A stretch of 64,000 nucleotides of DNA from Patescibacteria group bacterium (GCA_016926555.1 JAFGOI010000004.1:776-64775); one strand, 5' to 3'; positions 7,335-64,000 are shown, counted from the first letter of the stretch. The notes: generated from the letters alone by a model not told the origin. Translations and numbers: made by a program.

Positions 7335-7410
7335 GGCCCCATCGTCTAGTGGCCTAGGACGTCAGGTTCTCATCCTGGAAACCGGGGTTCGATTCCCCGT
7401 GGGGTCACCA
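7335..7410 (+). tRNA. tRNA-Glu (anticodon CUC)
   Basis: A 76-nt cloverleaf. The 7-bp acceptor stem is GGCCCCA/UGGGGUC and the D arm is GUCU/GGAC. The anticodon stem UCAGG/CCUGG carries the loop UUCUCAU. The T arm is GGGGU-UCGAUUC-CCCCG, followed by an encoded CCA. Confidence 0.8.
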
Positions 7411-7579: not shown

Positions 7580-7600
7580 CGATTCCCCGTGGGGTCACCA
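7580..7600 (+). repeat. 21-nt direct duplicate of the tRNA-Glu 3' end (CGATTCCCCGTGGGGTCACCA), att-like
   Basis: An exact copy of tRNA positions 56-76 lies 169 bp downstream of the intact tRNA. Confidence 0.7.
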
Positions 7601-9669: not shown

Positions 9670-11058
9670 CTATACTGGCTCTGATACAACCTTTTTTTGA
9701 GTAGCCTCGTAGAAGCCAACTTTTCCGCTATTTCTCCCGATTCCAGATAGTTTGTATCCCCCAAAAGGAGAGTTCTCTGAGAAATAGGAAGTATTGTTTA
9801 TACTTACTTGTCCGGCATCAATTTTTGATGCGACTCTTTTAAGCTGGTCAATATTTTCTCCGTAAACATAAGCACTTAGGCCATAAATGGTTTTATTTGA
9901 TAATTCAACCGCCTCATCTTCAGTTTTGAAGCTTAATATAGGTAGAACAGGCCCAAAAGTTTCCTCAGTCAATACTCGCATATCTTCTGTAAGATTGGTT
10001 AATATTGTAGGCTTGTAATACGCGCCTTTAAGTTTCTTGTATACTTCACCTCCGATTACAACTTTCGCACCTTTCTTTTTCGCATCCTCAACTTGGTCGA
10101 TTAAAAGATCCAGTTGTCTTTTAGCTACTAGTGGCCCGATGTTGGTGGTTTCGTCTAGGGGATCTCCAATTTTCATGCCTTCCAATAATATTTTCATTCT
10201 CTCAACAACTTCGTCAAAAATGTCTTCATGAACTATTAATCTCTTTAGCGCGCAGCAAACTTGTCCGCAGTTCGTAAACCGTTCTGTACAGGCGTGCCCA
10301 CAAACTAAATCTAGGTTTGCTTCTTTAAATATTATTCCGGGCGATGACCCGCCCATTTCTAATACAGCGTGAATAAATTTCTTACCGGCTTTTTCATATA
10401 AGTAACGTCCTACTTTTGTGCTGCCGGTGAAGTGTATGGAATCAATTTCCTGGTCGGTCAGCATATCTCCCACTCTTCCATTTCCGTATACTTCATTAAA
10501 GACTCCTTTGGGGAATCCAGCTTTTTTCACAATGTCTTCCAGCAGTTTTCCCGTGAGGGGACATTCCTCTGAATGTTTGAAAACAACTGTGTTTCCCGCG
10601 AGTATCAACTGAACACAAGAAATGAAAAAGTTGGAGGATGGGTAATTCCATGGCACGATAACAGCTACAACCCCGTGCGGTTCAGGATATAGGACATTTC
10701 TTTGAGTATCTGTTTCGTCTAGTACTTTAGGCTGTAATATCTCTTTTGCGAGTTTAATGTTGCTTGCTATTATTGCCAGATCGAATTCGGTGTCCATCTT
10801 ACTCTCTCTTATAGGTTTGCCCATTTCCTTTGACTGTAGTTCTGCAACTTCATCTTTGTGCTTTTCGTATATTTTTAAAAGTGTCTCAAAGTACTCAATC
10901 CGTTTTTCTACGGGTGTTTCTTTCCAGGAAAGTTTGGCTTTTTGCGCTTTTCTTACTATGTCTTTTATTTCTTCTTCTGTTGATATTGATACCTCACCGA
11001 TCACTTCGTAGTTTTTCGCAGGATTTGTAGATATGAGTTTTTGCGGATTTGTTTTCAT
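9670..11058 (-). CDS. NAD(P)-dependent aldehyde dehydrogenase
   Basis: A 462-aa protein with a catalytic Cys region (FTNCGQVCCALKRL) and the ELGG motif (LEMGGSSP). Confidence 0.8.
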   Translation of the reverse strand: MKTNPQKLISTNPAKNYEVIGEVSISTEEEIKDIVRKAQKAKLSWKETPVEKRIEYFETLLKIYEKHKDEVAELQSKEMGKPIRESKMDTEFDLAIIASNIKLAKEILQPKVLDETDTQRNVLYPEPHGVVAVIVPWNYPSSNFFISCVQLILAGNTVVFKHSEECPLTGKLLEDIVKKAGFPKGVFNEVYGNGRVGDMLTDQEIDSIHFTGSTKVGRYLYEKAGKKFIHAVLEMGGSSPGIIFKEANLDLVCGHACTERFTNCGQVCCALKRLIVHEDIFDEVVERMKILLEGMKIGDPLDETTNIGPLVAKRQLDLLIDQVEDAKKKGAKVVIGGEVYKKLKGAYYKPTILTNLTEDMRVLTEETFGPVLPILSFKTEDEAVELSNKTIYGLSAYVYGENIDQLKRVASKIDAGQVSINNTSYFSENSPFGGYKLSGIGRNSGKVGFYEATQKKVVSEPV

Positions 11059-31899: not shown

Positions 31900-32080
31900 T
31901 AAAAAGGCTATAAGCGGATTTGTGACGGCCGCTTTTTCCGGTACGGGAAAGCTTCTGAGAGGAAATGCTCAGACGGGAATGCCCGTTACAGCTGTAAATT
32001 AAGTGAAAAGTTTCAGGTGGCACCGTCGCTCGAAAACTCGGGAAGACCCTGGCAAATAAGCCGGGGATTTTTTATTTTAA
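31900..32080 (+). promoter_or_regulatory. Candidate T-box riboswitch leader upstream of aspS
   Basis: A T-box-like core AGGUGGCACCG lies at 32015..32025 (consensus AGGGUGGNACCGCG). A downstream terminator hairpin CCCTGGC-aaataa-GCCGGGG plus TTTTTTATTTT lies at 32047..32076. The whole element sits immediately 5' of an aminoacyl-tRNA synthetase gene. Confidence 0.45.
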
Positions 32081-32092
32081 GGGGGTTTTATT

Positions 32093-33385
32093 ATGGTCAG
32101 AACTTATATTAAAGACTTGAAGGAGAAAATAGGAAAAGATGTAACAGTTAAAGGTTTTGTGCAGAGTATACGAAATCAAGGGGGAATAAAGTTTCTAATA
32201 TTAAGAGATGTAACTGGTATTATCCAGTGTGTGGTAATGAAATCCGATAAAGAGGCTTTTGGATTTGTAGAAGATTTAAGTTTGGAATCAGTTGTATCAA
32301 TTGAAGGCTTGGTTAAGGAGGAGAAACAAGCTCCTGACGGTTTTGAAGTTCAGGTCAAAAGTATTGAAATATTGTCTAAAGCGTACCCCGAACTTCCGAT
32401 TCCTGTTGTATATGAAAAAAGCGGAGATGAAACAGATGTGACTAAAAGATTAGATTATAGGTGGCTGGATTTAAGAAGACCCGAGCACTTACAAATATTC
32501 AAAGTTTGGACTGAACTAGAAAAAGGTTTTAGGAAATTTTGTGATGAAAACAATTTCGTTCAGATATATACGCCGTCATTTATGATTGCACCAAGTGAAA
32601 GTGGCTCTGAGGTGTTTGAGGTTGAATATTTTGACAGAAAGGCATATCTGGCTCAATCTCCCCAGTTCTATAAGCAAATGGCGTTAGCATCCGGTTTTGA
32701 CCGCGTATTCATGGCAGGTCCTGTTTTCAGGGCTGAACCTTCTTTTACGACCAGGCATATGACCGAGTTTACCGGTTGGGATTTTGAAATGGCTTATGTT
32801 GATAGTCATCACGATGTTATGGATCTGTTGGAAGGTGCTATAGTGGCGGGATTTTCCCAAATAAGAGATAGTTTAGATATAGATATTGTGGTACCTTCTC
32901 GACCCTTTCCGAGATTAACGATGGCGGAAGCAAAAGAAAAACTTAGCTCCAGAAATGTTCCAAGTAAAGCGGTATTTGATGTAAGCCCGGAAGAAGAACG
33001 CATTTTGTGTGAAATAGTAAAAGAGGAGACCAACCATGATTTTGTCTTCCTGACAGATTGGCCCGTTGAGGGAAGGCCTTTTTATCACATGAGATATGAA
33101 GGTGATCAGAAGACAACAAAAAGTTATGATCTTTTATACAGGGGATTGGAAATTGTAACTGGCGCGCAGAGAGAACACAGACACGATGTTTTGGTTAGGC
33201 AGGCGGAAGAGAAGAAAATGAATTTAAACCAGCTGAAGGACTATCTGGAATTTTTTAGATATGGGTGCCCTCCGCATGGTGGTGCAGGTATAGGTCCCGG
33301 AAGAATTATTATGATGCTCTTAGATCTATCTAGTGTTAAGGAGGCAACATTCCTGCCGAGAGATGTAAAAAGATTGAGACCTTAG
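32093..33385 (+). CDS. aspS: Aspartate--tRNA ligase, archaeal/type-2 short form
   Basis: A 430-aa protein with an N-terminal OB fold, LAQSPQFYKQ, motif 2 FRAEPSFTTRHMTEF and motif 3 GGAGIGPGRIIMML. Confidence 0.8.
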   Translation: MVRTYIKDLKEKIGKDVTVKGFVQSIRNQGGIKFLILRDVTGIIQCVVMKSDKEAFGFVEDLSLESVVSIEGLVKEEKQAPDGFEVQVKSIEILSKAYPELPIPVVYEKSGDETDVTKRLDYRWLDLRRPEHLQIFKVWTELEKGFRKFCDENNFVQIYTPSFMIAPSESGSEVFEVEYFDRKAYLAQSPQFYKQMALASGFDRVFMAGPVFRAEPSFTTRHMTEFTGWDFEMAYVDSHHDVMDLLEGAIVAGFSQIRDSLDIDIVVPSRPFPRLTMAEAKEKLSSRNVPSKAVFDVSPEEERILCEIVKEETNHDFVFLTDWPVEGRPFYHMRYEGDQKTTKSYDLLYRGLEIVTGAQREHRHDVLVRQAEEKKMNLNQLKDYLEFFRYGCPPHGGAGIGPGRIIMMLLDLSSVKEATFLPRDVKRLRP

Positions 33386-35005: not shown

Positions 35006-36139
35006 TTACTCCATCTCCACTTTTTTTATCCACTCACCTCTAATTGCAGGATAGTAAAGTGTTATTTCTCCGCCTTCTGTTCCTTTGGTCTGGAAATTGC
35101 CTTCAAACAGGTAGATTGGCTGCAGATACTGCTGTTTGTCGTTTGTTTCATAGTAAGCGAGATATATGTTGTTTATAAGGATTATATCAACGTTTAACGG
35201 TGTATATTCTTCGAATGGGTTGTAGTCTTTTTCTCTTACATGAGTAATAACAGCCTTGTTTTCTTGTAATGCTTTCCACGCCTCTTGAACTGTTAGAATT
35301 GGATATGTGGCGTTTGATTCTGTATCAATTTCCCAGTAGTGAGCCTCTATAATGGGATAGTTGAGGGGAGTGCTATCTTTTGTGGGGTTTCTTACAATGG
35401 CATGGAGTAGGCCTACTGATGGATCAGGTCCGACGATGGGGTAGTTGTTTATAAGCCTGTAAATATCTGTCATAGCTATCTGTCTGTCTCTGGTTGATTT
35501 TGCTTGTACCAGTCTGCCGTTATATATTGTGCCGAATTTTATTTTTACATAACTGGAAGGGTAAAGGGAGTCGTTGTATCTCCAGATAGCTTTAAAGAGG
35601 TTTACTACGGCCTTTTCAGCAATATTATGATCTAGTATTCCCTTGGGATACGCGTTTTCGTTCCTTGGGATATCAGTAAATAAGCTTAGTTCTTTAGTTC
35701 TTATATCTATTTCAAGTGTGCTTCCGGTCGAAAGTTTCTTCCATTTGTATATATCTTCTTTGAGGTTTGATGCTAAATCAGAGTCATTAAAACCTAAAAA
35801 TGCTGCGTCTTTTTGCGCATCTTTCCCAGATTGAAATGAAAATGGGTGGTCCTTGATTTTATAAACGTACATTCTGTTCGGAAGGCCCGTTGGCAGTTTT
35901 CCGTCTGTAGTATTTAGCGAATATCGAGGTGTCTTTGAGTTTATAGGTTTTGGTTCAAATGTTAAAGGATCCAATAGGCCATACGTTACAGTTGGCGGGT
36001 TTTTCGGGGGGAACAGAACTGCGATCATCTTTTTTCCTGTGGGTATTACAAGAAGGATTACTATGTAATACACAAAAGCAGCAACAAATACCAGTTTTAA
36101 TCCCGATCTGAATTTTCTGGCTGATTCAGTTAAACTCAT
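35006..36139 (-). CDS. Hypothetical membrane-anchored protein (377 aa)
   Basis: An N-terminal TM helix (LKLVFVAAFVYYIVILLVIP) followed by a soluble domain. No family recognised. Confidence 0.45.
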   Translation of the reverse strand: MSLTESARKFRSGLKLVFVAAFVYYIVILLVIPTGKKMIAVLFPPKNPPTVTYGLLDPLTFEPKPINSKTPRYSLNTTDGKLPTGLPNRMYVYKIKDHPFSFQSGKDAQKDAAFLGFNDSDLASNLKEDIYKWKKLSTGSTLEIDIRTKELSLFTDIPRNENAYPKGILDHNIAEKAVVNLFKAIWRYNDSLYPSSYVKIKFGTIYNGRLVQAKSTRDRQIAMTDIYRLINNYPIVGPDPSVGLLHAIVRNPTKDSTPLNYPIIEAHYWEIDTESNATYPILTVQEAWKALQENKAVITHVREKDYNPFEEYTPLNVDIILINNIYLAYYETNDKQQYLQPIYLFEGNFQTKGTEGGEITLYYPAIRGEWIKKVEME

Positions 36140-41158: not shown

Positions 41159-41368
41159 ATGTACTACGTGCTTTTGTTGTTGCTGTTCGGCCTTTTGTAT
41201 TATGTGTTTGCGAAGATACTTAGTTCAATGATTAAAGGATGTTTGGTGTCTGCCTTCATTTTAATTGTTGTTTTAGCAGGAATAATATTGTATAAGTCTA
41301 CTAAAGAACCCGTAAATATTCTTGGTCTTTACGTGGTCGATAATTTTGAGATAACCAGGAAATTTTAA
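41159..41368 (+). CDS. Hypothetical small 2-TM membrane protein (69 aa)
   Basis: An ORF between rny and ymdB with an SD (gaggag) upstream. Confidence 0.3.
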   Translation: MYYVLLLLLFGLLYYVFAKILSSMIKGCLVSAFILIVVLAGIILYKSTKEPVNILGLYVVDNFEITRKF

Positions 41369-54681: not shown

Positions 54682-55134
54682 TCTATTTAGCTAGGTTCTG
54701 AACAGGCTACAGACGCTAAAGGCTTGGGTCCAGGTACTAATCGGAATTTACAGCGCGACCTATAGTATTGACTTCTCGGATAATTTATACTATAATTAAC
54801 GTTGCAATGTTAGTATAAGGAACATTCTAGAGTTCAAGTTTGAAATGACACACCCAGTGAAATATTATGGTGGTAATGAAAAACCATGCACATTTAACAA
54901 TATATTATGACAGAGAGATACATAATCAAGGTACCGGGAAATAAGTAATAAAAAACAAACTTTGTTATTTATTTTCCGGCATCTTAGAGATATAGACCTT
55001 ATTTTTCCATGGAGGTGGAAATAATAAGAGCGGGTTAGTTACACCGCGCTTCTCTAGGAGAAACCTTGTTGTGTGTAGTTTAGCCGGAAATACACGATAT
55101 TACATTACGTTACGATCAGAAAAAAAGGAGTACA

Positions 55135-55875
55135 ATGAGAGCGAAAATCGTTGTTGTGTTGGTTTTGTTGTCCCTGGTCACCATTCCCGTCCTTGCGGAT
55201 CCTCCCGCGTCTAGCGGAATCCTGCCGAGGCAGGAGGATGTCCCGGGCTTTTGCGAGCACGGGGCAGTGGTTGGGAGGGAGGGGACCCTCGTGTACCGAG
55301 GACCGGGTACCTATTATGGTACCTGGGGCACTTTGCCCGCAGGGGCGGTGGGGATTGTCGACACCGACGGGGATTGGTACCGCATCTCGTACGACTATGA
55401 GATGTGGGTTCCGGGATACGCTGTCGTATCCCACAGCGGGTGTAACATTCCCCCGGAGTATGGGTTTGGTTACCCCCACCCGGTTTCGCTTCCAGCTCCT
55501 CTGCAAGGAGCAGAATGGAAAAGGATCTGGGAGCTTCTCCCCGAGAACTACTGGCAAGAAGGAATGCCGATAAGTTTTCGGGTGAGCGTTGCCGGGGAGG
55601 ATGGGGAGACCATTATGGAGTATAGCGGAGGATTTTCTCCTAACTCACTGGTGCCCGTCCCCAGCAGTGTTCGCGGTTATGTGGTGCGGATAACCGCCGC
55701 AGTTAACTTTCCTCCCCCAGGGGAGGCTCGGGTTTACTGGACCAACCAGGTCGAATGGGCGGTCTTAGACCCCGAAGCCGGTTGGATCAACCTCCCGCTA
55801 GAAAGCCAAGATAGGCTCTCTTTGGCGGGGGAGGATCAGGATTGGACGGACGGGGTCTACTGGTGGAGGTGGTAA
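55135..55875 (+). CDS. Secreted SH3b-domain protein encoded by a GC-rich, compositionally foreign ORF
   Basis: An SD aaaggag precedes the ATG. A signal peptide MRAKIVVVLVLLSLVTIPVLA and an SH3b-like segment GTLVYRGPGTYYGTWGTLPAGAVGIVDTDGDWYRISY follow. Third codon positions are mostly G/C, unlike every other gene in the window. Confidence 0.55.
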   Translation: MRAKIVVVLVLLSLVTIPVLADPPASSGILPRQEDVPGFCEHGAVVGREGTLVYRGPGTYYGTWGTLPAGAVGIVDTDGDWYRISYDYEMWVPGYAVVSHSGCNIPPEYGFGYPHPVSLPAPLQGAEWKRIWELLPENYWQEGMPISFRVSVAGEDGETIMEYSGGFSPNSLVPVPSSVRGYVVRITAAVNFPPPGEARVYWTNQVEWAVLDPEAGWINLPLESQDRLSLAGEDQDWTDGVYWWRW

Positions 55876-55900
55876 GCCACAAAGCTAGATAGACCCCCAT

Positions 55901-55970
55901 GAGCTACGGTTCCCTGTTCTTAAGTGTAAACACAATTGGTGACTCACACACTGAACAGGAACCGTAGCTC
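55901..55970 (+). terminator. Long inverted repeat (18-bp stem, 34-nt loop) immediately downstream of the GC-rich gene. Possibly a terminator.
   Basis: GAGCTACGGTTCC(C)TGTTC ... GAACAGGAACCGTAGCTC followed by TTTACGTTTTTC. Confidence 0.4.
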
Positions 55971-56036
55971 TTTACGTTTTTCAATACCTTTTTATTCAAA
56001 TGGATATCACATAAATCACGTGTTAATATATTATCG

Positions 56037-58327: not shown

Positions 58328-58582
58328 ATGGCAACAAAAAAAAGTAGGACAAAAAGGTCTAGAAAAACTAAAGGAAGCTTGTCTCAATCTAAAAAATCCA
58401 AACCAGGAGAAAAAAAGAAACCAGAGAAAGAGACAGTTGTTGATAATATAATGGATACACTCGCGAGGAATCGTATAAAGAAGGAATTGATTATTGACCT
58501 AATTTATTTAGCTGTTGTGACTGCAGCATTATTGGCGACTAAGGGTTTTGGGCTGTGGGACATTCTTTTATCTAGGTTTTAG
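58328..58582 (+). CDS. Hypothetical small Lys-rich protein with a C-terminal TM helix (84 aa)
   Basis: An ORF 8 nt after ftsK. Its 3' end overlaps prfB convergently by 11 nt. Confidence 0.35.
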
Positions 58583-59612
58583 ATTTGGAGTCGTCAAGTG
58601 AACCTGATAAATTTAGTTTTATTTCGGCATCTATAAACTCATCAATATCTCCATCGAGGACTTTGTTGGGGTTACTGCTTTCAATATTTGTTCTTAAGTC
58701 CTTCACTAATTTGTAGGGGTGCAAAACATAATTCCTTATTTGGTTGCCCCATCCCGGAGTCTTGTAAGATCCTTTCAGTTCTTTTTTCTCTTTGCCCAGT
58801 TTAGCCTCTTCCTGTAATAGCAGTTTTGATTTTAGGAGTTGTAGTGCTTTGTCCCGGTTTCTTCCTTGGTATCTTTCCTCCTGGCATTCGATAACAATCC
58901 CGCTTGGTTTGTGTTTGACTCTTACGGCGGTTGAGACTTTGTTTACGTTTTGTCCGCCATGTCCGCCAGCCCTAAAAAAATCCCACTCCAGATCCTCTTC
59001 TTTTATTTCCACATCGATGTCTTTCTCGATAATAGGGGTTACCTCCACGAGAGCGAATGAAGTTTGCCGTAGATTGTCGGCATTGAAGGGAGATTGGCGA
59101 ACTAATCTGTGCACACCGCTTTCATTTTTTAAAAATCCGGCTGCATATTTTCCCTCAATTTCGAATGTTACAGACTTAATACCGACCTCTTCACCTGTAA
59201 TTTTATGAATCTCAGAGGCGTTCCAAACCTTTTTTTCGGCGTATCTTATGTACATGCGATATAACATTTCAGTCCAGTCCATTGCTTCTGTTCCGCCTTG
59301 GCCCGCGTGAATAGAGACTAAGGCATTACACGAATCATATTTTCCAGATAAGTATGTTTTTAGTTCGAGTTTAGGAAAATCCTGTTCAAATTGTTCCGTC
59401 TCATTTTCTTCAAGAAGTAACTCAAGCATTTCGTACTCTTCAATATCTTTCTCCAATGAGGCTAAATCTCGGGCAATTTTTTGGCCCTCTTCCCAATTTT
59501 GCCAAAGGGTTTCGTCTTCCATTTGTTTTTTCAGGTTATTGATTTTTTTCCTTTTCTCGTCTATGAAAAGAGCCTTCTTTAAATTCTCTAATCGTTCCTG
59601 TTGTTCTCGCAT
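58572..59612 (-). CDS. prfB: Peptide chain release factor 2, encoded without a programmed frameshift
   Basis: The SPF tripeptide ([16 protein letters not shown]) and the GGQ motif ([11 protein letters not shown]). A single uninterrupted 346-aa ORF. Confidence 0.9.
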
Positions 59613-59627
59613 GGGGTAGATTATATA

Positions 59628-62207
59628 TTAGTCTTTGTCATCCTCAAAAACTTCAGTTCCAAGATCTAATATATCTCCTTTTTTTATCTCTTCCGTTAAA
59701 AATTTCGTAGCCAGATAGGATTCGACTGAATCTTCGATTACTCTAGCCAGTGGGCGTGCCCCCCATTCTGGGTTGTAGCCCCGTTTCATGAGTTCCTCAA
59801 TTAGAACCTCTTGAAATGTGACTTTTACGCCTTTTTCTTCGGCGATTTCCTTAACCTTTGATAGAAGTAATAAGGCTATATCCCGAACGTTTTCTTTTGT
59901 TAGAGGATGAAATACGATTATCCCGGAGAATCTGTTTAGGAATTCGGGCGCGAAGTGATTTCTAACTTCAGTCATCGCTGTGTCCTTCATTTTTTCGTAA
60001 TCGCCATTGTCGCGAAAAACCTCCTGGATGGCTCTGGTTCCCACATTGCTTGTAGCTATAATTATTGTATTCGAGAAATCAATGACTGTGCCCATAGAGT
60101 CGGTGACATGTCCCTCGTCGAGTATTTGTAGGAAAGTGAGAAGGATATTTGGATGCGCTTTTTCTATCTCGTCTAGCAAAATGAGTGCAAAAGGCCGGGA
60201 CCTGACTTTATCTGTTAAAATACCTCTTATGCTTCCATCCGGCGCTCCTATTAATCTATTGAGACTGTCCAGTTGCTGATATTCACTCATATCGAGTCTT
60301 ATCATTGTTTTTTCGTCCCCAAAATACGTTTTAGCGAGTGCTTTCGCGGTTTGTGTTTTTCCGACACCGGTTGTGCCTATAAATAAAAAGCTTGCGATTG
60401 GTTTATCCTCATTTCGTATTCCTACTCTGGCTCTTTTTAGCGCGGATGAGATTTGTTTTAGCGCATGATCTTGTCCAATTACCATATTTTTCATTTCTTT
60501 ATTGATCGTGAGAAGTTTTTTGGCTTCATCTTTGGTTACAGATTCAACCGGTATTTTTGTCATATCGGCAACTTCTTTTGAGATCTCATCTTTATTGAGA
60601 TATTTATTATCATTGGCAACTCTTGTGGCGGCACGGCTAATAATATCTATAGCCTTGTCAGGTAGTACTCTTTCGTGGATTAATTTTTCCGAAAGTTTTA
60701 CGGTTTCTGTAAGAGCGGGATAAGTAATAAAGACGCCATGTCGCGATTCCAGTTCCCTAGCCTTTTCTTTTAATATTTCTATTGTGTCGTCAAAAGAAGA
60801 TTCGGAAATTTCTATAACCTGGAATAATCTTGTAAAAGCTCCGTTTGGTTCAATAAATTTTCGATAGTTTCTTATTGTTGTGGCGCCAATAACTTGGACC
60901 TGTTCACTTGCGATTAGAGGTTCCAATATAGTGAAGATTGCGGAGGTTTCAGCTTGTTGATCGCCTGTTCCCGCGACAACATTATGGATTTCATCAAGAA
61001 AAAGAATTATATCCCGCGATCTCTTTATTTCGTTGATTACATTATTAAGTTTTTCAGCGATTTGCCCCGCTGTAGCTGTGCCAGCTATAATTCCACCTAT
61101 TTCCAAGCTTACAAGCCTTCTGTTTTTTAGAGATTTATATTTGGTTCCTCGAATGATTCTGTGAGCAATTCCCTGTATTATAGATGTTTTTCCGCTGCCT
61201 GCTTCACCTATAATAAGTATGTTGTCTTTAGAACCAGTAAGCATTTCAGCAATTTGTCTGATTTCTTCTTCTCTTCCTACGATGTTTTTTAAGCGTCCTT
61301 TCTGCACTTCCTTTGTGTAATCAGTGGAAACTGAGTCCAGAAAGGGGGTAACCACACCGGTCATTCCTTTGCCTATACCGCCCGTGTAAAGCACTTCGTA
61401 ATCGTCTTGCCAAATGTAAATTTTGGCTAGTTTTTCTCTTTCTTTAACATTCCATTCGGATGATTTTTCTAATATTTCTATTTTGCTGTCATGAGAAGCT
61501 AACAGATTCTCAATATTCGGTGAGGTAGATAAAATAGCCGTGAATAAATGTTCAAATTCAATATACCGCGCTTCATGAGCTTTGGCATACTCAAACATTT
61601 TTTTTTCAACATCTTCTGAATTTAGTTCAGAGAGTTTTGCTAAATCAGTGAGAAAGCCCATGGTGTTAAGTTCGCATCTTTGAAGTAAAAGAACGACGGG
61701 GCTTTTTTTGGTGAGTTTATTTAGACCAAACTTGAAGTTACTCTTAATAAGAGTGTATGCAGTTCCGGTATCGGGCCTTACGCATTTTTTCCAGTCCTTG
61801 TAGTTTTCGACTTGATGTAATTTCTTATCCGGAATATTCAGAGTTTGATATGTCCAAATAAAGTATGCTATCGCAATAATAGGTATCAGGAAAACGTGGA
61901 TTTCATAGAGTGCATAAAAAGGCAAGGTCCACCACGATATAGGAAGTATGAGAGTTAAAGCAGTAAGCATAACCATAATTACTAAACCTGAGATAATCTC
62001 CATTATTCTTATGAAAAGGCCGATAATACGTCCTATAACCGTGTAATCGCCGAAAAGGGGAGTAAATAGGAGCCGCGCATTTAAAGTGAATGAGAGCTCA
62101 TTGTTAACCAAAATCATTATTCTTTTAAAAACAGTGAATATGCGTTTCGGTGTATCTACAGCCCACCATATTAGGAATTTATGAGGGCTTTTCGGCAGCT
62201 GAACCAT
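59628..62207 (-). CDS. ClpA/ClpC-like double-AAA+ ATPase with an N-terminal 4-TM membrane domain
   Basis: The D1 domain (GREEEIRQIAEML...IIGEAGSGKTSI) and D2 domain (VIGQDHALKQI...FIGTTGVGKTQTAKALA...LLDEIEKAHP) are present. The first ~150 aa are hydrophobic helices. No IGF/IGL tripeptide is found at the ClpP-loop position. Confidence 0.8.
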   Translation of the reverse strand: MVQLPKSPHKFLIWWAVDTPKRIFTVFKRIMILVNNELSFTLNARLLFTPLFGDYTVIGRIIGLFIRIMEIISGLVIMVMLTALTLILPISWWTLPFYALYEIHVFLIPIIAIAYFIWTYQTLNIPDKKLHQVENYKDWKKCVRPDTGTAYTLIKSNFKFGLNKLTKKSPVVLLLQRCELNTMGFLTDLAKLSELNSEDVEKKMFEYAKAHEARYIEFEHLFTAILSTSPNIENLLASHDSKIEILEKSSEWNVKEREKLAKIYIWQDDYEVLYTGGIGKGMTGVVTPFLDSVSTDYTKEVQKGRLKNIVGREEEIRQIAEMLTGSKDNILIIGEAGSGKTSIIQGIAHRIIRGTKYKSLKNRRLVSLEIGGIIAGTATAGQIAEKLNNVINEIKRSRDIILFLDEIHNVVAGTGDQQAETSAIFTILEPLIASEQVQVIGATTIRNYRKFIEPNGAFTRLFQVIEISESSFDDTIEILKEKARELESRHGVFITYPALTETVKLSEKLIHERVLPDKAIDIISRAATRVANDNKYLNKDEISKEVADMTKIPVESVTKDEAKKLLTINKEMKNMVIGQDHALKQISSALKRARVGIRNEDKPIASFLFIGTTGVGKTQTAKALAKTYFGDEKTMIRLDMSEYQQLDSLNRLIGAPDGSIRGILTDKVRSRPFALILLDEIEKAHPNILLTFLQILDEGHVTDSMGTVIDFSNTIIIATSNVGTRAIQEVFRDNGDYEKMKDTAMTEVRNHFAPEFLNRFSGIIVFHPLTKENVRDIALLLLSKVKEIAEEKGVKVTFQEVLIEELMKRGYNPEWGARPLARVIEDSVESYLATKFLTEEIKKGDILDLGTEVFEDDKD

Positions 62208-62333
62208 ATATGTATAGAATATCAGAATATTAGAGTTAGAGGAATTTGGTTGTCTTACTTGTATAGATGAGAAAGTTAATTGAGGGGCGAATTGGGAATA
62301 TTACGAGGATATTTATACGAATTATACTATAAG

Positions 62334-62362
62334 TTGATTATGGGACCAATATAGTCTATAAT
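62334..62362 (+). promoter_or_regulatory. Sigma70-type promoter TTGATT-17-TATAAT
   Basis: The -35 element TTGATT lies at 62334..62339. A 17-nt spacer follows, then the -10 element TATAAT at 62357..62362, 48 nt upstream of the ATG at 62410. Confidence 0.5.
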
Positions 62363-62409
62363 GTTATGAGTTCAAGTTTGAATATCGCTTAAAAAAAGGA
62401 GGCATTACA

Positions 62410-62565
62410 ATGCGTAGAATGCGTAGAATGCTGAGGTTCTGTTTAGGACTTGCAGGTCCAGTTTTAATCATGGTCGGGGGACTTTGGTGTTTTTTCCTGT
62501 GTCCCTATCCAGCGTTTGTGGTTGTGGGGGGAGTAGCTCTCGTGCTACTCTACCGCAAGCTCTAA
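62410..62565 (+). CDS. Unannotated 51-aa two-TM membrane protein (MRRMRRMLRFCLGLAGPVLIMVGGLWCFFLCPYPAFVVVGGVALVLLYRKL)
   Basis: A strong SD AAAGGAGG lies 7 nt upstream of the ATG, with a consensus promoter further upstream. It is below the 60-aa cutoff of the ORF track. It is followed by a hairpin at 62571..62631. Confidence 0.45.
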   Translation: MRRMRRMLRFCLGLAGPVLIMVGGLWCFFLCPYPAFVVVGGVALVLLYRKL

Positions 62566-62570
62566 CCCAC

Positions 62571-62631
62571 CTGAAGCCGAGGGGAAATGTTTATCACACA
62601 TATACTATGAACATTCCTCTCGGCTTCCGGC
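62571..62631. terminator. Hairpin between convergent genes (GAAGCCGAGGGG ... CCTCTCGGCTTC), candidate bidirectional terminator
   Basis: An 11/12-bp stem with a ~37-nt loop. It is located between the 3' ends of the small ORF (+) and the TasA-like gene (-). Confidence 0.35.
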
Positions 62632-62641
62632 TTCTTGTGTA

Positions 62642-63229
62642 CTACTCCGCACCTATGGAACCAAACTCAAAGTCAAAAACCGCACTTGTGCCTTGTTTTG
62701 AATCTGGAACGATATCAGTTGAAAACTTAAGAATTATTGATTTTATTTCTCCTGAATTGATAGAACCCAAGTTAAATCCTTCGGTTTTCCATTTGACTAT
62801 GGTTTTTCTTCCGAAACTTGATCCCGTTTCTCCTTCTTCCAGTAGGCCATTTCCATTAGTATCATTCCATTCCAGAGGTTCGACATATATTAGTTGGCGC
62901 AGTTCATCCGGATCATTGGCAGTTTCGTAGTTTGAATTACTCGTGAGGTGTACTTGACCCGGTGAGTTGTTAAACACTTTTATTAGGTATTCCGTTTTCC
63001 AATTGGAGCTGATATTACCAAATACTGGGCCATCAATTTCGTCTTTAAGGTTTTCTGGTATAGTACCGAGCGTAATATCTTCCAGCAGTTTTATGTCCGC
63101 GCTCCCCACGCTAAATGAAGACCCGAGTATTTTGCCTTTGTCCGAAAATGCTGAATATGTTGCTCCTACGCATATAGTTAAAAGAAGAAAAAGTACACCT
63201 GCAAGAATTGTTTTCTTTTTATTTCTCAT
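62642..63229 (-). CDS. TasA/camelysin-like secreted protein with a SipW-cognate-type signal peptide
   Basis: The N-terminus MRNKKKTILAGVLFLLLTICVGATYSAFSD carries the (A/G)xxYAYFSD-like motif of SipW-dependent proteins (TIGR04088 class). 195 aa. Confidence 0.5.
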   Translation of the reverse strand: MRNKKKTILAGVLFLLLTICVGATYSAFSDKGKILGSSFSVGSADIKLLEDITLGTIPENLKDEIDGPVFGNISSNWKTEYLIKVFNNSPGQVHLTSNSNYETANDPDELRQLIYVEPLEWNDTNGNGLLEEGETGSSFGRKTIVKWKTEGFNLGSINSGEIKSIILKFSTDIVPDSKQGTSAVFDFEFGSIGAE

Positions 63230-63926
63230 TTATATCACCTCCTTTCGTGTTTCTATCACCTATTAACTTCACCGCTTTCATACTTGTATAATCTTTCGCA
63301 CTTACAATTAGGTGATCCAATAGTGGGATTCCTATAATTTGTCCCGTTTTATAAATTCTCTGCGTGACGTAAATATCCTCTTTACTTGGTGTGGTGTCGT
63401 TAGAAGGATGGTTGTGAGCTAGAATTATTGATACCGCGTTATTTCTTATTGCTTTGTTGTATATTTCTCGTGGGTGGATTACTGCTTCATTTATTGTTCC
63501 GATTGAGACTATGTCTTTTGATATTAGATTATTTTTTGTGTCTAAAGAAATTAGAAATAGGTATTCTTTCTTTTTTCCAAAAATGTCTTTTCTAACCAGA
63601 TCGTACACATCCTTTGGTTTGTTTACTTGTATTGAGCTTTCAGTATCGGGGTTGTTTAACCTTAAGGCTATTTCTGTTAATGCCTTTATACTTGTCGCTT
63701 TGGCCTTTCCAATATATTTGTAAGATGTGAGCTCATTTAAGTCCGCATCAACGAGGTTTTTAAAACCGCCGAAGTTTTTGATTATTTTTCGTGATAGATC
63801 TAGAACGGATGTTCTTTTACCGCCATGCCTGAGTATTATTGCTAATAGTTCTATGTCAGTTAAATTAGAGCTTCCATATTTGTATAGTTTTTCTCGGGGA
63901 TGCTCTTTTAGTAAAAGGTTTTTCAT
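63219..63926 (-). CDS. radC: RadC-like JAB/MPN-domain protein (UPF0758)
   Basis: An N-terminal HhH-like region and a JAMM motif (ILAHNHPSNDTTPSKEDI). 235 aa. Confidence 0.8.
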   Translation of the reverse strand: MKNLLLKEHPREKLYKYGSSNLTDIELLAIILRHGGKRTSVLDLSRKIIKNFGGFKNLVDADLNELTSYKYIGKAKATSIKALTEIALRLNNPDTESSIQVNKPKDVYDLVRKDIFGKKKEYLFLISLDTKNNLISKDIVSIGTINEAVIHPREIYNKAIRNNAVSIILAHNHPSNDTTPSKEDIYVTQRIYKTGQIIGIPLLDHLIVSAKDYTSMKAVKLIGDRNTKGGDINEK

Positions 63927-64000
63927 AACAAAATTAGAGACACCCGCAATATAGGTTATTGCAATATATATTGCAATATGGTAGCTTCTAAGTTATTAAG

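What the first reader, a model, noticed from the sequence alone, without database searches (positions are those of the whole stretch)
62410..62565. Unannotated, strongly signalled 51-aa membrane protein gene missed by the ORF track
A near-consensus sigma70 promoter (TTGATT-17-TATAAT) and a perfect SD (AAAGGAGG, 7-nt spacer) drive the ORF MRRMRRMLRFCLGLAGPVLIMVGGLWCFFLCPYPAFVVVGGVALVLLYRKL. It has an Arg-rich N-terminus with a tandem MRR codon duplication (atgcgtaga x2), then two hydrophobic helices. It ends just before a hairpin shared with the convergent TasA-like gene. The expression signals are among the strongest in the window. This suggests an abundant small membrane protein, such as a toxin-like or holin-like peptide or a regulatory peptide. 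It shares its promoter module with the GC-rich SH3b gene. An SH3b cell-wall-binding protein plus a small two-TM peptide is reminiscent of lysis or cell-envelope-remodelling modules, although the two are not adjacent.
Basis: partly seen in the sequence, partly recalled or inferred. Interest (0 to 1): 0.6.

Follow-up and report, generated by a model that had tools for sequence, protein, structure and literature searches.

The report
Orphan small membrane-protein gene cassette
An unannotated 51-codon gene with its own promoter, ribosome-binding site and terminator sits in extra DNA between two conserved genes of an uncultured Patescibacteria genome; it probably encodes a two-helix membrane peptide with no known relatives, so it is a plausible but unproven, fairly ordinary kind of small accessory gene.

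Summary
GGAGG, 5-9 nt, ATG and at least 50 open codons arise together in only 0.5% of shuffles of all intergenic DNA in the window. The peptide is predicted to be a helical hairpin with Arg/Lys only at the two ends and no S/T/N/Q/D/E/H residue.

The ORF lies in a 434-bp gap between a TasA-like gene and a membrane-anchored ClpB-like gene, antisense to both. In six other relatives that gap is about 30-200 bp. The closest relative (L024) has a different, unrelated 101-aa antisense gene at the same site with the same layout.

The peptide has no homologue in any database searched, and its codon choice is non-native. No genome is close enough for a dN/dS test.

A second GC-rich orphan insertion, the SH3-like gene 55135-55875, shares an exact 15-mer after a consensus promoter and an A7GGAG..TACAATG ribosome-binding site.

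Best reading (about 0.65): a real, lineage-specific, "moron-like" stand-alone gene for a small membrane hairpin protein. Its function is not established. The toxin, holin and lysis-module ideas are not supported by context or family tests. Chance ORF or small RNA remains possible (about 0.2).

The parts
62334..62362 (+). Sigma-70-type promoter: TTGATT, 17 nt, TATAAT. The expected transcription start is ~62368-62370.
   Evidence: 10 of 12 matches; sequence. It overlaps back-to-back minus-strand promoter-like sites that face the ClpB-like gene (TTGAAC-16-TATATT, 62375..62348).
62368..62382 (+). 15-mer GAGTTCAAGTTTGAA containing the palindrome TTCAA-GT-TTGAA. It overlaps the expected transcription start and is a candidate operator. 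The exact same 15-mer lies at 54830-54844.
   Evidence: These are the only two copies in the window, and BLAST E = 0.024 for the pair within the 72-kb set. The operator role is inferred, not shown.
62395..62402 (+). Shine-Dalgarno sequence AAAGGAGG, 7 nt before the ATG. It is part of A7GGAGG..TACAATG, which resembles the ribosome-binding site of ORF 55135.
62410..62565 (+). 51-codon ORF: MRRMRRMLRFCLGLAGPVLIMVGGLWCFFLCPYPAFVVVGGVALVLLYRKL. Predicted N-in/C-in helical hairpin.
62410..62430 (+). In-frame 9-bp tandem repeat (ATGCGTAGA x2 followed by ATG). It gives three in-frame Met codons separated by Arg-Arg.
   Evidence: Sequence. The repeat can form a 6-bp hairpin over the first two AUGs.
62570..62630 (.). 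Long hairpin between the convergent small ORF and the TasA-like gene. It is a probable bidirectional terminator. It is the positional counterpart of the hairpin that follows the TasA-like stop in relatives.
   Evidence: dG -32.3 and -30.0; z -6.0 and -3.65. Hairpins in relatives. There is no canonical U-run on either strand.
62208..62641 (.). The whole 434-bp TasA-like to ClpB-like gap, about 230-400 bp longer than in six of the eight relatives. Its right half is GC-rich (~0.5 against 0.38 for the window).
54768..55875 (+). Sister insertion, comprising: promoter TTGACT-17-TATAAT (54768-54796); the same 15-mer (54830-54844); a ~290-nt leader with a hairpin at ~54933-54980; the ribosome-binding site A7GGAG-TACAATG; and a 246-aa orphan secreted SH3-like ORF (55135-55875; GC 58%, GC3 65%). 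A further hairpin follows at 55901-55970.
   Evidence: The RNase J to FtsK gap is 21-165 bp in relatives against 1355 bp here.

Best explanation
The segment is a self-contained, lineage-specific accessory transcription unit. Its layout is 'moron-like': it has its own promoter, strong SD, short ORF and terminator hairpin, and atypical composition. It is inserted antisense between two genes that are adjacent in most relatives.

The mRNA would start near 62369. It would be translated from the SD-led AUG at 62410, possibly also from the in-frame AUGs at codons 4 and 7, and would end at the hairpin shared with the TasA-like gene.

The product is a 51-aa peptide that inserts into the cytoplasmic membrane as a helical hairpin. 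The Arg-rich N-terminus and the C-terminal RK would lie in the cytoplasm, following the positive-inside rule. A Cys-Pro-Tyr-Pro turn would lie outside.

The Gly-rich helix faces (G13xxG16, G23G24, G40G41) suggest that it acts inside the membrane. It could do so by self-association or by docking onto a larger membrane protein, as a small membrane-active or modulatory peptide.

The palindrome over the transcription start is shared with the other GC-rich orphan insertion. This suggests that the two are switched by a common DNA-binding factor.

Shown: the sequence anatomy, its statistical non-randomness, the insertion status and the absence of homologues. Inferred: transcription, translation, topology, regulation and any activity.
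For: 1. Signals and their conjunction: GGAGG, 5-9 nt, ATG and >=50 codons arise in 0.5% of shuffles of all intergenic DNA, and in 0.12% of shuffles of this gap alone.

2. SD is a working signal in this genome but is used sparingly, by recA, RNase Y and the TasA-like gene. About a third of genes instead have TATAAT 4-15 nt before the start.

3. Peptide design:
- It has no S/T/N/Q/D/E/H residue, against a mean of 11.4 and a minimum of 4 in 2000 composition-matched open shuffles.
- Its 39-residue uncharged run is reached by 30 of 20,000 shuffles, and its GRAVY of 1.22 by 2.1%.
- Its period-3 signal is reached by 2.9% of shuffles.
- Single-sequence AF2 gives a helix-turn-helix at mean pLDDT 81.8.

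4. The 9-bp duplication keeps the reading frame.

5. The ORF fills the space between the ribosome-binding site and the hairpin.

6. Insertion status: the synteny RadC, TasA-like, ClpB-like, RF-1 is conserved. The gap is 34-201 bp in six relatives.

7. Positional analogue: the closest relative, L024, carries an unrelated 101-aa antisense gene at the same site. That gene also has a TATAAT promoter, a GAGGAGG SD and a hairpin shared with the TasA-like gene.

8. Codon choice is as non-native as that of the NCBI-annotated GC-rich SH3-like gene: log2 RSCU -0.13 and -0.19, against 0.13 +/- 0.10 for native windows.

9. The same sequence occurs in an independent Logan assembly of the sample.
Against: - No homologue was found anywhere. 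Searches covered phmmer against 1.84 billion representatives, the word-indexed search, back-translated scans of JGI metagenomes and IMG/VR, tblastn of phages and plasmids, PDB, and Pfam, NCBIfam, PHROGs and PADLOC. No evolutionary test of coding is therefore possible.
- The codon-usage log-odds (-0.12 per codon) equals the mean of spurious ORFs (-0.116) and lies below all 336 native 51-codon windows.
- Gene callers skipped the ORF.
- Shadow ORFs in this AT-rich genome can be equally hydrophobic; this one ranks 6th of 184 by GRAVY.
- The ORF RNA folds better than shuffles (z = -3.0), which would also suit a structured RNA.
- Helix 2 is short, 14-17 apolar residues.
- The hairpin lacks a U-run.
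- The 'no polar residue' statistic was chosen after seeing the sequence.
Confidence: 0.65

Rival explanations
1. There is no protein. The gap holds only regulatory DNA: divergent promoters for the ClpB-like gene and the TasA-like terminator. It may also produce a small structured or antisense RNA from the plus-strand promoter. On this view the 51-codon frame is a by-product.
For: - 12% of composition-matched sequences stay open for 51 codons.
- The codon-usage score is indistinguishable from that of spurious ORFs.
- The ORF RNA has z = -3.0 and the whole 283-nt transcript z = -3.95.
- GC-rich patches in AT-rich genomes are often RNAs.
- There is no homologue and no gene call.
- A plus-strand transcript running past the hairpin would be antisense to the TasA-like mRNA.
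Against: - The strong SD at ideal spacing, the ATG and the long frame occur together in <=0.5% of shuffles.
- An RNA-only model does not explain the charge segregation, the total lack of polar residues or the period-3 bias.
- No Rfam family matches even at E <= 10.
- Much of the folding signal comes from the terminator hairpin.
Confidence: 0.2
2. It is the toxin of a type I toxin-antitoxin-like module. A membrane-depolarising peptide would be held in check by RNA-level repression, by an antisense RNA or by a 5'-3' fold that hides the SD.
For: - It is small, very hydrophobic, intergenic, lineage-specific and lacks homologues, as is typical of type I toxins (background: PMC10730256).
- In the full-length predicted transcript the SD pairs with CUUCUU at 62631-62636, with P(unpaired) = 0.09.
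- Read-through from the TasA-like gene would be antisense to it.
Against: - The SD occlusion is not significant: 9% of shuffled tails do as well.
- There is no sigma-70-like minus-strand promoter inside or just downstream of the ORF.
- It has two helices and only a 3-residue tail, whereas known toxins have one TM plus a polar tail (own knowledge).
- There is no Pfam or NCBIfam toxin family hit.
- A near-consensus promoter plus a strong SD is an odd way to keep a toxin silent.
Confidence: 0.08
3. It is a holin or pinholin-like partner of the secreted SH3-like protein, forming a split lysis or envelope-remodelling module. The MRR-MRR-M starts would give holin and antiholin isoforms.
For: - It has two predicted TM helices in N-in/C-in topology, like class II holins (PMC9636201).
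- The in-frame Met codons separated by basic residues resemble the dual-start motif of S105/S107 and S21-68/71.
- The 15-mer and the type of ribosome-binding site are shared with the SH3-like gene.
- Both are GC-rich orphan insertions.
Against: - There is no hit to any holin family in PHROGs or Pfam.
- The C-terminal tail is only RKL, with no charged cytoplasmic domain.
- At 51 aa it is smaller than class II holins (own knowledge).
- There is no phage context; the neighbours are RadC, TasA-like, ClpB-like, RF-1 and FtsK.
- The SH3-like gene is 6.5 kb away, has its own signal peptide and has no recognisable catalytic domain. Its SH3_3 match is sub-threshold and its AF2 model is unusable (pLDDT 37).
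Confidence: 0.04
4. It is the stump of a larger foreign gene. Only the start, signals and N-terminal signal-anchor survive, truncated when the rest was deleted, so it is now a non-functional relic.
For: - The composition and codon choice are non-native.
- The N-terminus (basic stretch followed by a hydrophobic stretch) resembles a signal-anchor.
- The site is a hot spot for gene gain and loss among relatives.
Against: - The frame closes 5 nt before a strong hairpin, giving a tidy gene end.
- The second hydrophobic helix plus a terminal RK makes a complete hairpin rather than a cut-off signal peptide.
- There is no similarity to the SipW peptidase or to the 101-aa gene that occupy this site in relatives.
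- No longer homologue was found by any search.
Confidence: 0.05

Closest known systems
Phage 'morons': independent accessory transcription units (Juhala/Hendrix concept, reviewed in PMC3594210)
   Same: - A single short gene with its own promoter and terminator.
- Composition different from the neighbours.
- Inserted between two genes that are adjacent in related genomes.
   Different: - It lies in a chromosomal housekeeping block of a Patescibacteria genome, not in a phage or prophage.
- No mobility genes or target-site duplications were seen.
Bacterial small membrane proteins found as unannotated sORFs (for example MgrB, AcrZ, MgtS-type modulators; reviews PMC10723866, PMC10730256, PMC11539335)
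   Same: - About 50 aa, very hydrophobic and missed by annotation.
- Stand-alone sORF with its own ribosome-binding site.
- Expected to act inside the membrane, often on a larger partner.
   Different: - Most characterised examples have one TM helix and are conserved at least within a genus (own knowledge).
- This one has two helices, is an orphan and has foreign-looking codon usage.
- No partner is identifiable.
Pmp3/YqaE (UPF0057) proteolipids
   Same: Similar size (~52-57 aa) and a two-helix hairpin topology (own knowledge).
   Different: - No sequence match to PF01679 or any other Pfam model, even at E <= 10.
- The poly-Arg N-terminus is not a feature of that family.
Class II holins / pinholins with a dual-start motif (phage 21 S21-68/71)
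   Same: Predicted N-in/C-in two-TM topology. Several in-frame Met codons separated by basic residues.
   Different: - No charged C-terminal domain, and a smaller size.
- No lysis cassette or phage context.
- No PHROGs or Pfam hit.
Type I toxins (Hok, TisB, Fst/Ldr, BsrG and others)
   Same: A small hydrophobic peptide from a lineage-specific intergenic locus, with no detectable homologues.
   Different: - Two helices instead of one.
- No antisense RNA gene detected.
- No family hit.
The 101-aa antisense gene at the same site in the closest relative (L024, GCA_042571515.1)
   Same: - Same position between the TasA-like and ClpB-like genes, in the same antisense orientation.
- TATAAT promoter, strong SD and a hairpin shared with the TasA-like gene.
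- Membrane-associated product with a C-terminal TM helix.
   Different: - No sequence similarity.
- It is twice as long and has a basic soluble N-terminal domain.
- Its GC content is native (0.38 against 0.37).

Membership tests
Type I toxin-antitoxin toxin | Small (<60 aa) hydrophobic peptide with a predicted TM segment | tested here: met
   51 aa, GRAVY 1.22, and two predicted helices.
Type I toxin-antitoxin toxin | Antisense or overlapping RNA antitoxin with its own promoter | tested here: inconclusive
   No minus-strand sigma-70-like site within 62400-62640. The only minus-strand site (62375..62348) fires away from the ORF. A consensus scan cannot exclude a weak or non-canonical promoter, or read-through from the TasA-like gene.
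Type I toxin-antitoxin toxin | Sequence membership of a described toxin family (Hok/Gef, Ldr, TisB, Ibs, ShoB, Fst, TxpA and others) | tested here: not met
   No hits in Pfam or NCBIfam at E <= 10 and E <= 1 respectively.
Type I toxin-antitoxin toxin | Toxicity on overexpression, neutralised by the RNA | not testable with these tools
   Needs an experiment.
Class II holin / pinholin | Two TM helices in N-in/C-in topology | tested here: met
   By prediction only. AF2 gives helices 4-30 and 33-50, with basic residues at both ends (sequence).
Class II holin / pinholin | Dual-start motif giving holin and antiholin isoforms | tested here: inconclusive
   Met1, Met4 and Met7 are in frame and separated by Arg-Arg. 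The SD is optimally spaced only for Met1; the spacing is 16 and 25 nt for the others. Use of the later starts is unknown.
Class II holin / pinholin | Hydrophilic, highly charged C-terminal cytoplasmic domain | tested here: not met
   The C-terminus after helix 2 is only R-K-L.
Class II holin / pinholin | Located in a phage lysis cassette next to an endolysin, with a match to a holin family | tested here: not met
   The neighbours are RadC, TasA-like, ClpB-like and RF-1. There is no PHROGs or Pfam hit, and no relative in IMG/VR or GenBank phages.
Pmp3/YqaE (UPF0057, PF01679) | Match to the family profile | tested here: not met
   No Pfam hits at E <= 10. Only the size and topology are alike.
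Moron-like autonomous accessory cassette | Lies between two genes that are adjacent in related genomes | tested here: met
   The TasA-like to ClpB-like gap is 34-201 bp in six relatives and 434 bp here.
Moron-like autonomous accessory cassette | Own promoter and own terminator | tested here: met
   At the consensus and thermodynamic level only: promoter 10 of 12, hairpin -32 kcal/mol with z = -6. Transcription has not been observed.
Moron-like autonomous accessory cassette | Nucleotide composition differs from the surrounding genes | tested here: met
   GC is 0.49 against 0.38 for the window. GC3 is 0.49 against 0.34 +/- 0.07, and synonymous codon choice falls in the lowest 0.6% of native windows.
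Moron-like autonomous accessory cassette | Resides in a phage or prophage genome | tested here: not met
   The context is a conserved chromosomal block running from ribosomal protein genes through RadC, TasA-like, ClpB-like, RF-1 and FtsK. The resemblance is therefore architectural only.

The most novel reading that the evidence does not exclude
The two GC-rich orphan insertions, the 51-aa hairpin peptide and the secreted SH3-like protein, form one horizontally acquired regulon. They would be switched by a factor that binds the shared TTCAA-GT-TTGAA palindrome. The peptide would be a minimal pinholin-like membrane gate whose MRR-MRR-M triple start yields isoforms with different N-terminal charge. 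Together the two would form a split envelope-remodelling or host-attack module in an episymbiotic Patescibacteria cell.
Probability: 0.04. Interest if true: 0.7.

Novelty: new member of a known kind. Interest (0 to 1): 0.3.

Why it matters
If the gene is real, it adds one more case to the large, under-annotated class of small membrane proteins, here in a reduced, uncultured Patescibacteria genome where every accessory gene is likely to matter for its symbiotic lifestyle.

It also shows that the conserved TasA-like to ClpB-like junction is a hot spot. Unrelated small antisense genes with their own promoter, SD and shared terminator come and go there.

SD-led, GC-rich cassettes can also be recognised against a largely leaderless, AT-rich background. 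That contrast could be used to find recently acquired genes in such genomes.

The practical value is modest. There is no homologue, no assignable function and no cultured host.

Tried and rejected
- **Homology searches for the peptide, all empty.**
  - exact look-up and word-indexed search
  - exhaustive phmmer against 1.84 billion representatives
  - back-translated scans of JGI metagenome contigs and IMG/VR
  - tblastn of GenBank phages and PLSDB plasmids
  - PDB sequences
  - Pfam, NCBIfam, PHROGs and PADLOC
  - Foldseek of the AF2 model against PDB
- **Paralogues.** No paralogue of the peptide, and no long repeat of the insertion, occurs in the window or in L001.
- **Known RNA families.** Rfam gave nothing at gathering threshold or at E <= 10 over 62150-62700.
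- **Relic of a SipW peptidase.** L005 has a SipW-type signal peptidase at this site, but tblastn found no similarity. There is also no similarity to the 101-aa gene of L024.
- **Closer relatives for dN/dS.**
  - The best TasA-like relatives are only 62-65% identical.
  - Eight syntenic loci were inspected and none has the ORF.
- **Shared 15-mer as a wider regulatory motif.**
  - Scanning TATAAT-N(3-33)-GAGTTCAAGTTTGAA in metagenome contigs gave 16 unrelated, largely coding hits.
  - There are no further copies in the window.
- **SD sequestration by a 5'-3' interaction, as in type I toxin mRNAs.** It is predicted, but 9% of shuffles do as well.
- **SH3-like protein.**
  - It is an orphan too.
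  - It has no relative in IMG/VR.
  - Its AF2 model is unusable at pLDDT 37 (96), so no fold search was run.
- **Integron attC reading of the hairpins.** Considered by eye and dropped, because no R''/R' core sites were seen. This was not formally tested.

Full report
**1. What is there**

The window is AT-rich (38% GC). It comes from an uncultured Patescibacteria genome.
- The neighbouring TasA-like protein is NCBI 'hypothetical protein JXA34_00650 [Patescibacteria group bacterium]'. Its best relatives are WWE3 or Saccharibacteria-type MAGs at only ~62-65% identity.
- An independently assembled Logan contig (L001, SRR13394437) is 100% identical over 59875-64000. The region is therefore not an artefact of one assembler. 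The read set may, however, be the same.

| Feature | Coordinates | Detail |
|---|---|---|
| Promoter | 62334-62362 | TTGATT-17-TATAAT |
| Shine-Dalgarno | 62395-62402 | AAAGGAGG, 7 nt before the ATG |
| ORF | 62410-62565 | 51 codons |
| Tandem repeat | 62410-62430 | ATGCGTAGA x2, in frame |
| Hairpin | 62570-62630 | -32 kcal/mol, z = -6 |

The hairpin lies between the ORF stop and the stop of the convergent TasA-like gene at 62642. No gene is called there in L001, and the peptide is absent from the protein collection.

**2. Is it more than chance?**

Taken one at a time, the signals are weak evidence.
- 12% of composition-matched ATG-led shuffles stay open for 51 codons.
- Promoter-like sites are no more frequent than in shuffles.
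- GGAGG occurs 109 times in the window.

The conjunction is rare. GGAGG, 5-9 nt, ATG and >=50 sense codons ending in a stop appear in 0.5% of dinucleotide shuffles of all ~6 kb of intergenic DNA on both strands. With AGGAGG the figure is 0.1%, and for this gap alone 0.12%.

The genomic background makes the SD more telling.
- About a third of genes (20 of 56) have a TATAAT-like box ending 4-15 nt before the start codon, which suggests leaderless or near-leaderless mRNAs.
- Only 11 of 56 genes have any SD.
- The long SDs belong to recA, RNase Y, the TasA-like gene, the GC-rich SH3-like gene and this ORF.

**3. Does the frame look like a protein?**

In favour:
- The peptide has no Ser, Thr, Asn, Gln, Asp, Glu or His. 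Composition-matched open shuffles have 11.4 such residues on average and never fewer than 4 in 2000 trials. This statistic was chosen after seeing the sequence.
- All seven charged residues are Arg or Lys, at positions 2-9 and 49-50. The 39-residue uncharged run is reached by 0.15% of shuffles, and the GRAVY value by 2.1%.
- Codon position 2 is T or G in 42 of 51 codons. The period-3 information is reached by 2.9% of shuffles.
- Single-sequence AlphaFold2 gives helix 4-30, a turn at Cys-Pro-Tyr-Pro, and helix 33-50, at mean pLDDT 81.8.
- This layout fits an N-in/C-in hairpin under the positive-inside rule.

Against:
- The genome-trained codon log-odds (-0.12 per codon) equals the mean of spurious ORFs and is below all 336 native windows.
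- Synonymous codon choice falls in the lowest 0.6% of native windows. It is, however, similar to that of the NCBI-annotated GC-rich SH3-like gene (-0.13 against -0.19).
- Shadow ORFs antisense to real genes can be equally hydrophobic; this one ranks 6th of 184.
- The ORF RNA folds better than shuffles (z = -3.0).

**4. Comparative context**

The block rpS9, HTH(-), RadC, TasA-like, ClpB-like (with an N-terminal membrane domain), RF-1, FtsK(-), RNase J(-) is conserved in all relatives examined. All three flanking genes run on the minus strand here, so the small ORF is antisense to them.

| Genome or locus | TasA-like to ClpB-like gap | Content |
|---|---|---|
| L002, L003 | ~96 bp | empty |
| L006, L007 | 76-112 bp | empty |
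| L025 | 117 bp | empty |
| P0029 contig | 33 bp | empty |
| P0002 contig | 201 bp | empty |
| L005 | - | SipW-type signal peptidase |
| L024 | 445 bp | antisense 101-aa gene |
| This window | 434 bp | antisense 51-aa ORF |

L024 has the closest TasA-like protein, at 65% identity. Its 101-aa gene has a TATAAT promoter, a GAGGAGG SD and a hairpin shared with the TasA-like gene. It encodes a basic soluble domain followed by a C-terminal TM helix. It shows no similarity to the window's peptide or DNA.

Every relative has a hairpin directly after the TasA-like stop. The window's hairpin is therefore most simply the TasA-like terminator, reused by the inserted gene. The junction thus behaves as a hot spot where unrelated small genes with the same 'own promoter, strong SD, shared terminator' layout are gained and lost.

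**5. A sister insertion**

ORF 55135-55875 (246 aa, signal peptide, GC 58%, GC3 65%) lies in a 1355-bp RNase J to FtsK gap. That gap is 21-165 bp in relatives.
- The ORF is also an orphan; its only database hit is itself, named 'SH3 domain-containing protein' by NCBI.
- Pfam SH3_3 is sub-threshold (E = 0.032).

The two loci share three things.
- An exact 15-mer, GAGTTCAAGTTTGAA, containing the palindrome TTCAA-GT-TTGAA. It lies 5 nt (here) or 33 nt (there) after a consensus -10 box.
- An A7GGAG(G)..TACAATG ribosome-binding site. Three A7GGAG sites occur in the window: these two intergenic ones and one inside the ClpB-like coding sequence.
- A long-stem hairpin after the stop.

It suggests a common origin or a common regulator, but no more than that. 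A metagenome scan for the -10 box plus 15-mer returned only unrelated hits.

**6. Interpretation**

The best-supported reading is a real, recently acquired or lineage-specific stand-alone gene for a small helical-hairpin membrane peptide. The architecture is that described for phage morons: own promoter and terminator, deviant GC, and a position between genes adjacent in relatives (PMC3594210). Here, however, it sits in a chromosomal housekeeping block. I put the probability at about 0.65.

What the peptide does is not determinable from sequence.
- Gly-rich helix faces and the lack of any soluble domain point to action within the membrane, by self-association or by docking to a partner.
- Type I toxin and class II holin readings were tested against their defining features and are not supported (see the membership table).
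- The MRR-MRR-M triple start resembles holin dual-start motifs (PMC9636201), but only Met1 is well spaced from the SD.
- Predicted occlusion of the SD by the 3' end is not significant.

Alternatives:

| Alternative | Probability |
|---|---|
| Non-coding reading: chance frame, small RNA or antisense RNA | ~0.2 |
| Type I toxin | ~0.08 |
| Truncated relic of a foreign gene | ~0.05 |
| Split lysis module with the SH3-like gene | ~0.04 |

**7. Verdict**

- Novelty is limited to a new orphan member of the broad class of unannotated small membrane proteins and accessory cassettes.
- With no homologues, no close relatives and no cultured host, interest is modest (0.3).
- The decisive data are strand-specific transcript mapping, population pN/pS in the source reads, and tagged expression.

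Noticed in passing
window 54682-56036: A 1355-bp RNase J to FtsK gap (21-165 bp in relatives) holds a GC-rich (58%) orphan gene for a secreted 246-aa protein. NCBI names it 'SH3 domain-containing protein', but Pfam SH3_3 scores only E = 0.032. A ~290-nt leader precedes it, with a consensus promoter (54768-54796), a possible 21-codon mini-ORF starting at 54845 and a strong hairpin at ~54933-54980. Another hairpin follows at 55901-55970.
   Followed up: partly
window 31901-32054; L001 3896-4021 (minus strand): A GC-rich leader upstream of a class II aminoacyl-tRNA synthetase (32093-33385) matches the Rfam T-box model only weakly (24 bits, E = 9e-4, against a gathering score of 93). An 85%-identical copy lies upstream of the seryl-tRNA synthetase gene in L001. 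These are probably divergent T-box leaders that Rfam's threshold misses.
   Followed up: partly
window 7390-7410 and 7580-7600: The last 21 nt of tRNA-Glu(CTC) are repeated exactly 190 bp downstream. The 169-bp GC-rich segment between the copies looks like the att-site scar of an integrated element that has been lost or reduced.
   Followed up: partly
whole window (for example 9670-11058, 24368, 26338, 33944, 35006-36139, 43665, 58572-59612): About a third of genes (20 of 56) have a TATAAT-like box ending 4-15 nt before the start codon, and only 11 of 56 have any SD. This suggests widespread leaderless or near-leaderless translation, with SD-led genes a minority (recA, RNase Y, TasA-like and the two GC-rich insertions).
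   Followed up: partly
window 59628-62207 (minus strand) and homologues in L002-L007, L024, L025: A ClpB-like double AAA+ protein with a ~120-residue N-terminal multi-pass membrane domain in place of the usual Clp_N domain. It always lies directly downstream of a TasA-like (SipW-dependent signal peptide) gene and upstream of prfA.
   Followed up: no
L024 553-858 (minus strand): The closest relative carries an unrelated 101-aa antisense gene at the same TasA-like to ClpB-like junction. It has its own TATAAT promoter, a GAGGAGG SD and a shared terminator hairpin, and encodes a basic N-terminal domain plus a C-terminal TM helix.
   Followed up: partly
window 41159-41368 (+) and 58328-58582 (+); L006 7253-7531 (minus strand): Other small candidate membrane-protein ORFs with native composition: a 69-aa two-TM ORF with a GAGGAG SD, and an 84-aa ORF with a Lys-rich N-terminus and a C-terminal TM that overlaps the prfA stop. 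L006 has a 92-aa two-TM antisense ORF between the ClpB-like gene and prfA.
   Followed up: no
window 62391-62414 vs L001 6703-6726: The small ORF's ribosome-binding region (TAAAAAAAGGAGGCATTACAATG) is 22 of 24 nt identical to a coding stretch of the rpoA C-terminal domain (..KKGGITT..) in the same genome (BLAST E = 0.002 in a 72-kb set). It may be chance or a hint about the origin of the ribosome-binding site.
   Followed up: no
window 62321-62375: Plus- and minus-strand promoter-like elements are interleaved back to back: + TTGATT-17-TATAAT; - TTGAAC-16-TATATT; and - TTGGTC-17-TATAAT at 62349..62321. The same ~55 bp may therefore drive both the small ORF and the ClpB-like gene divergently.
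   Followed up: no
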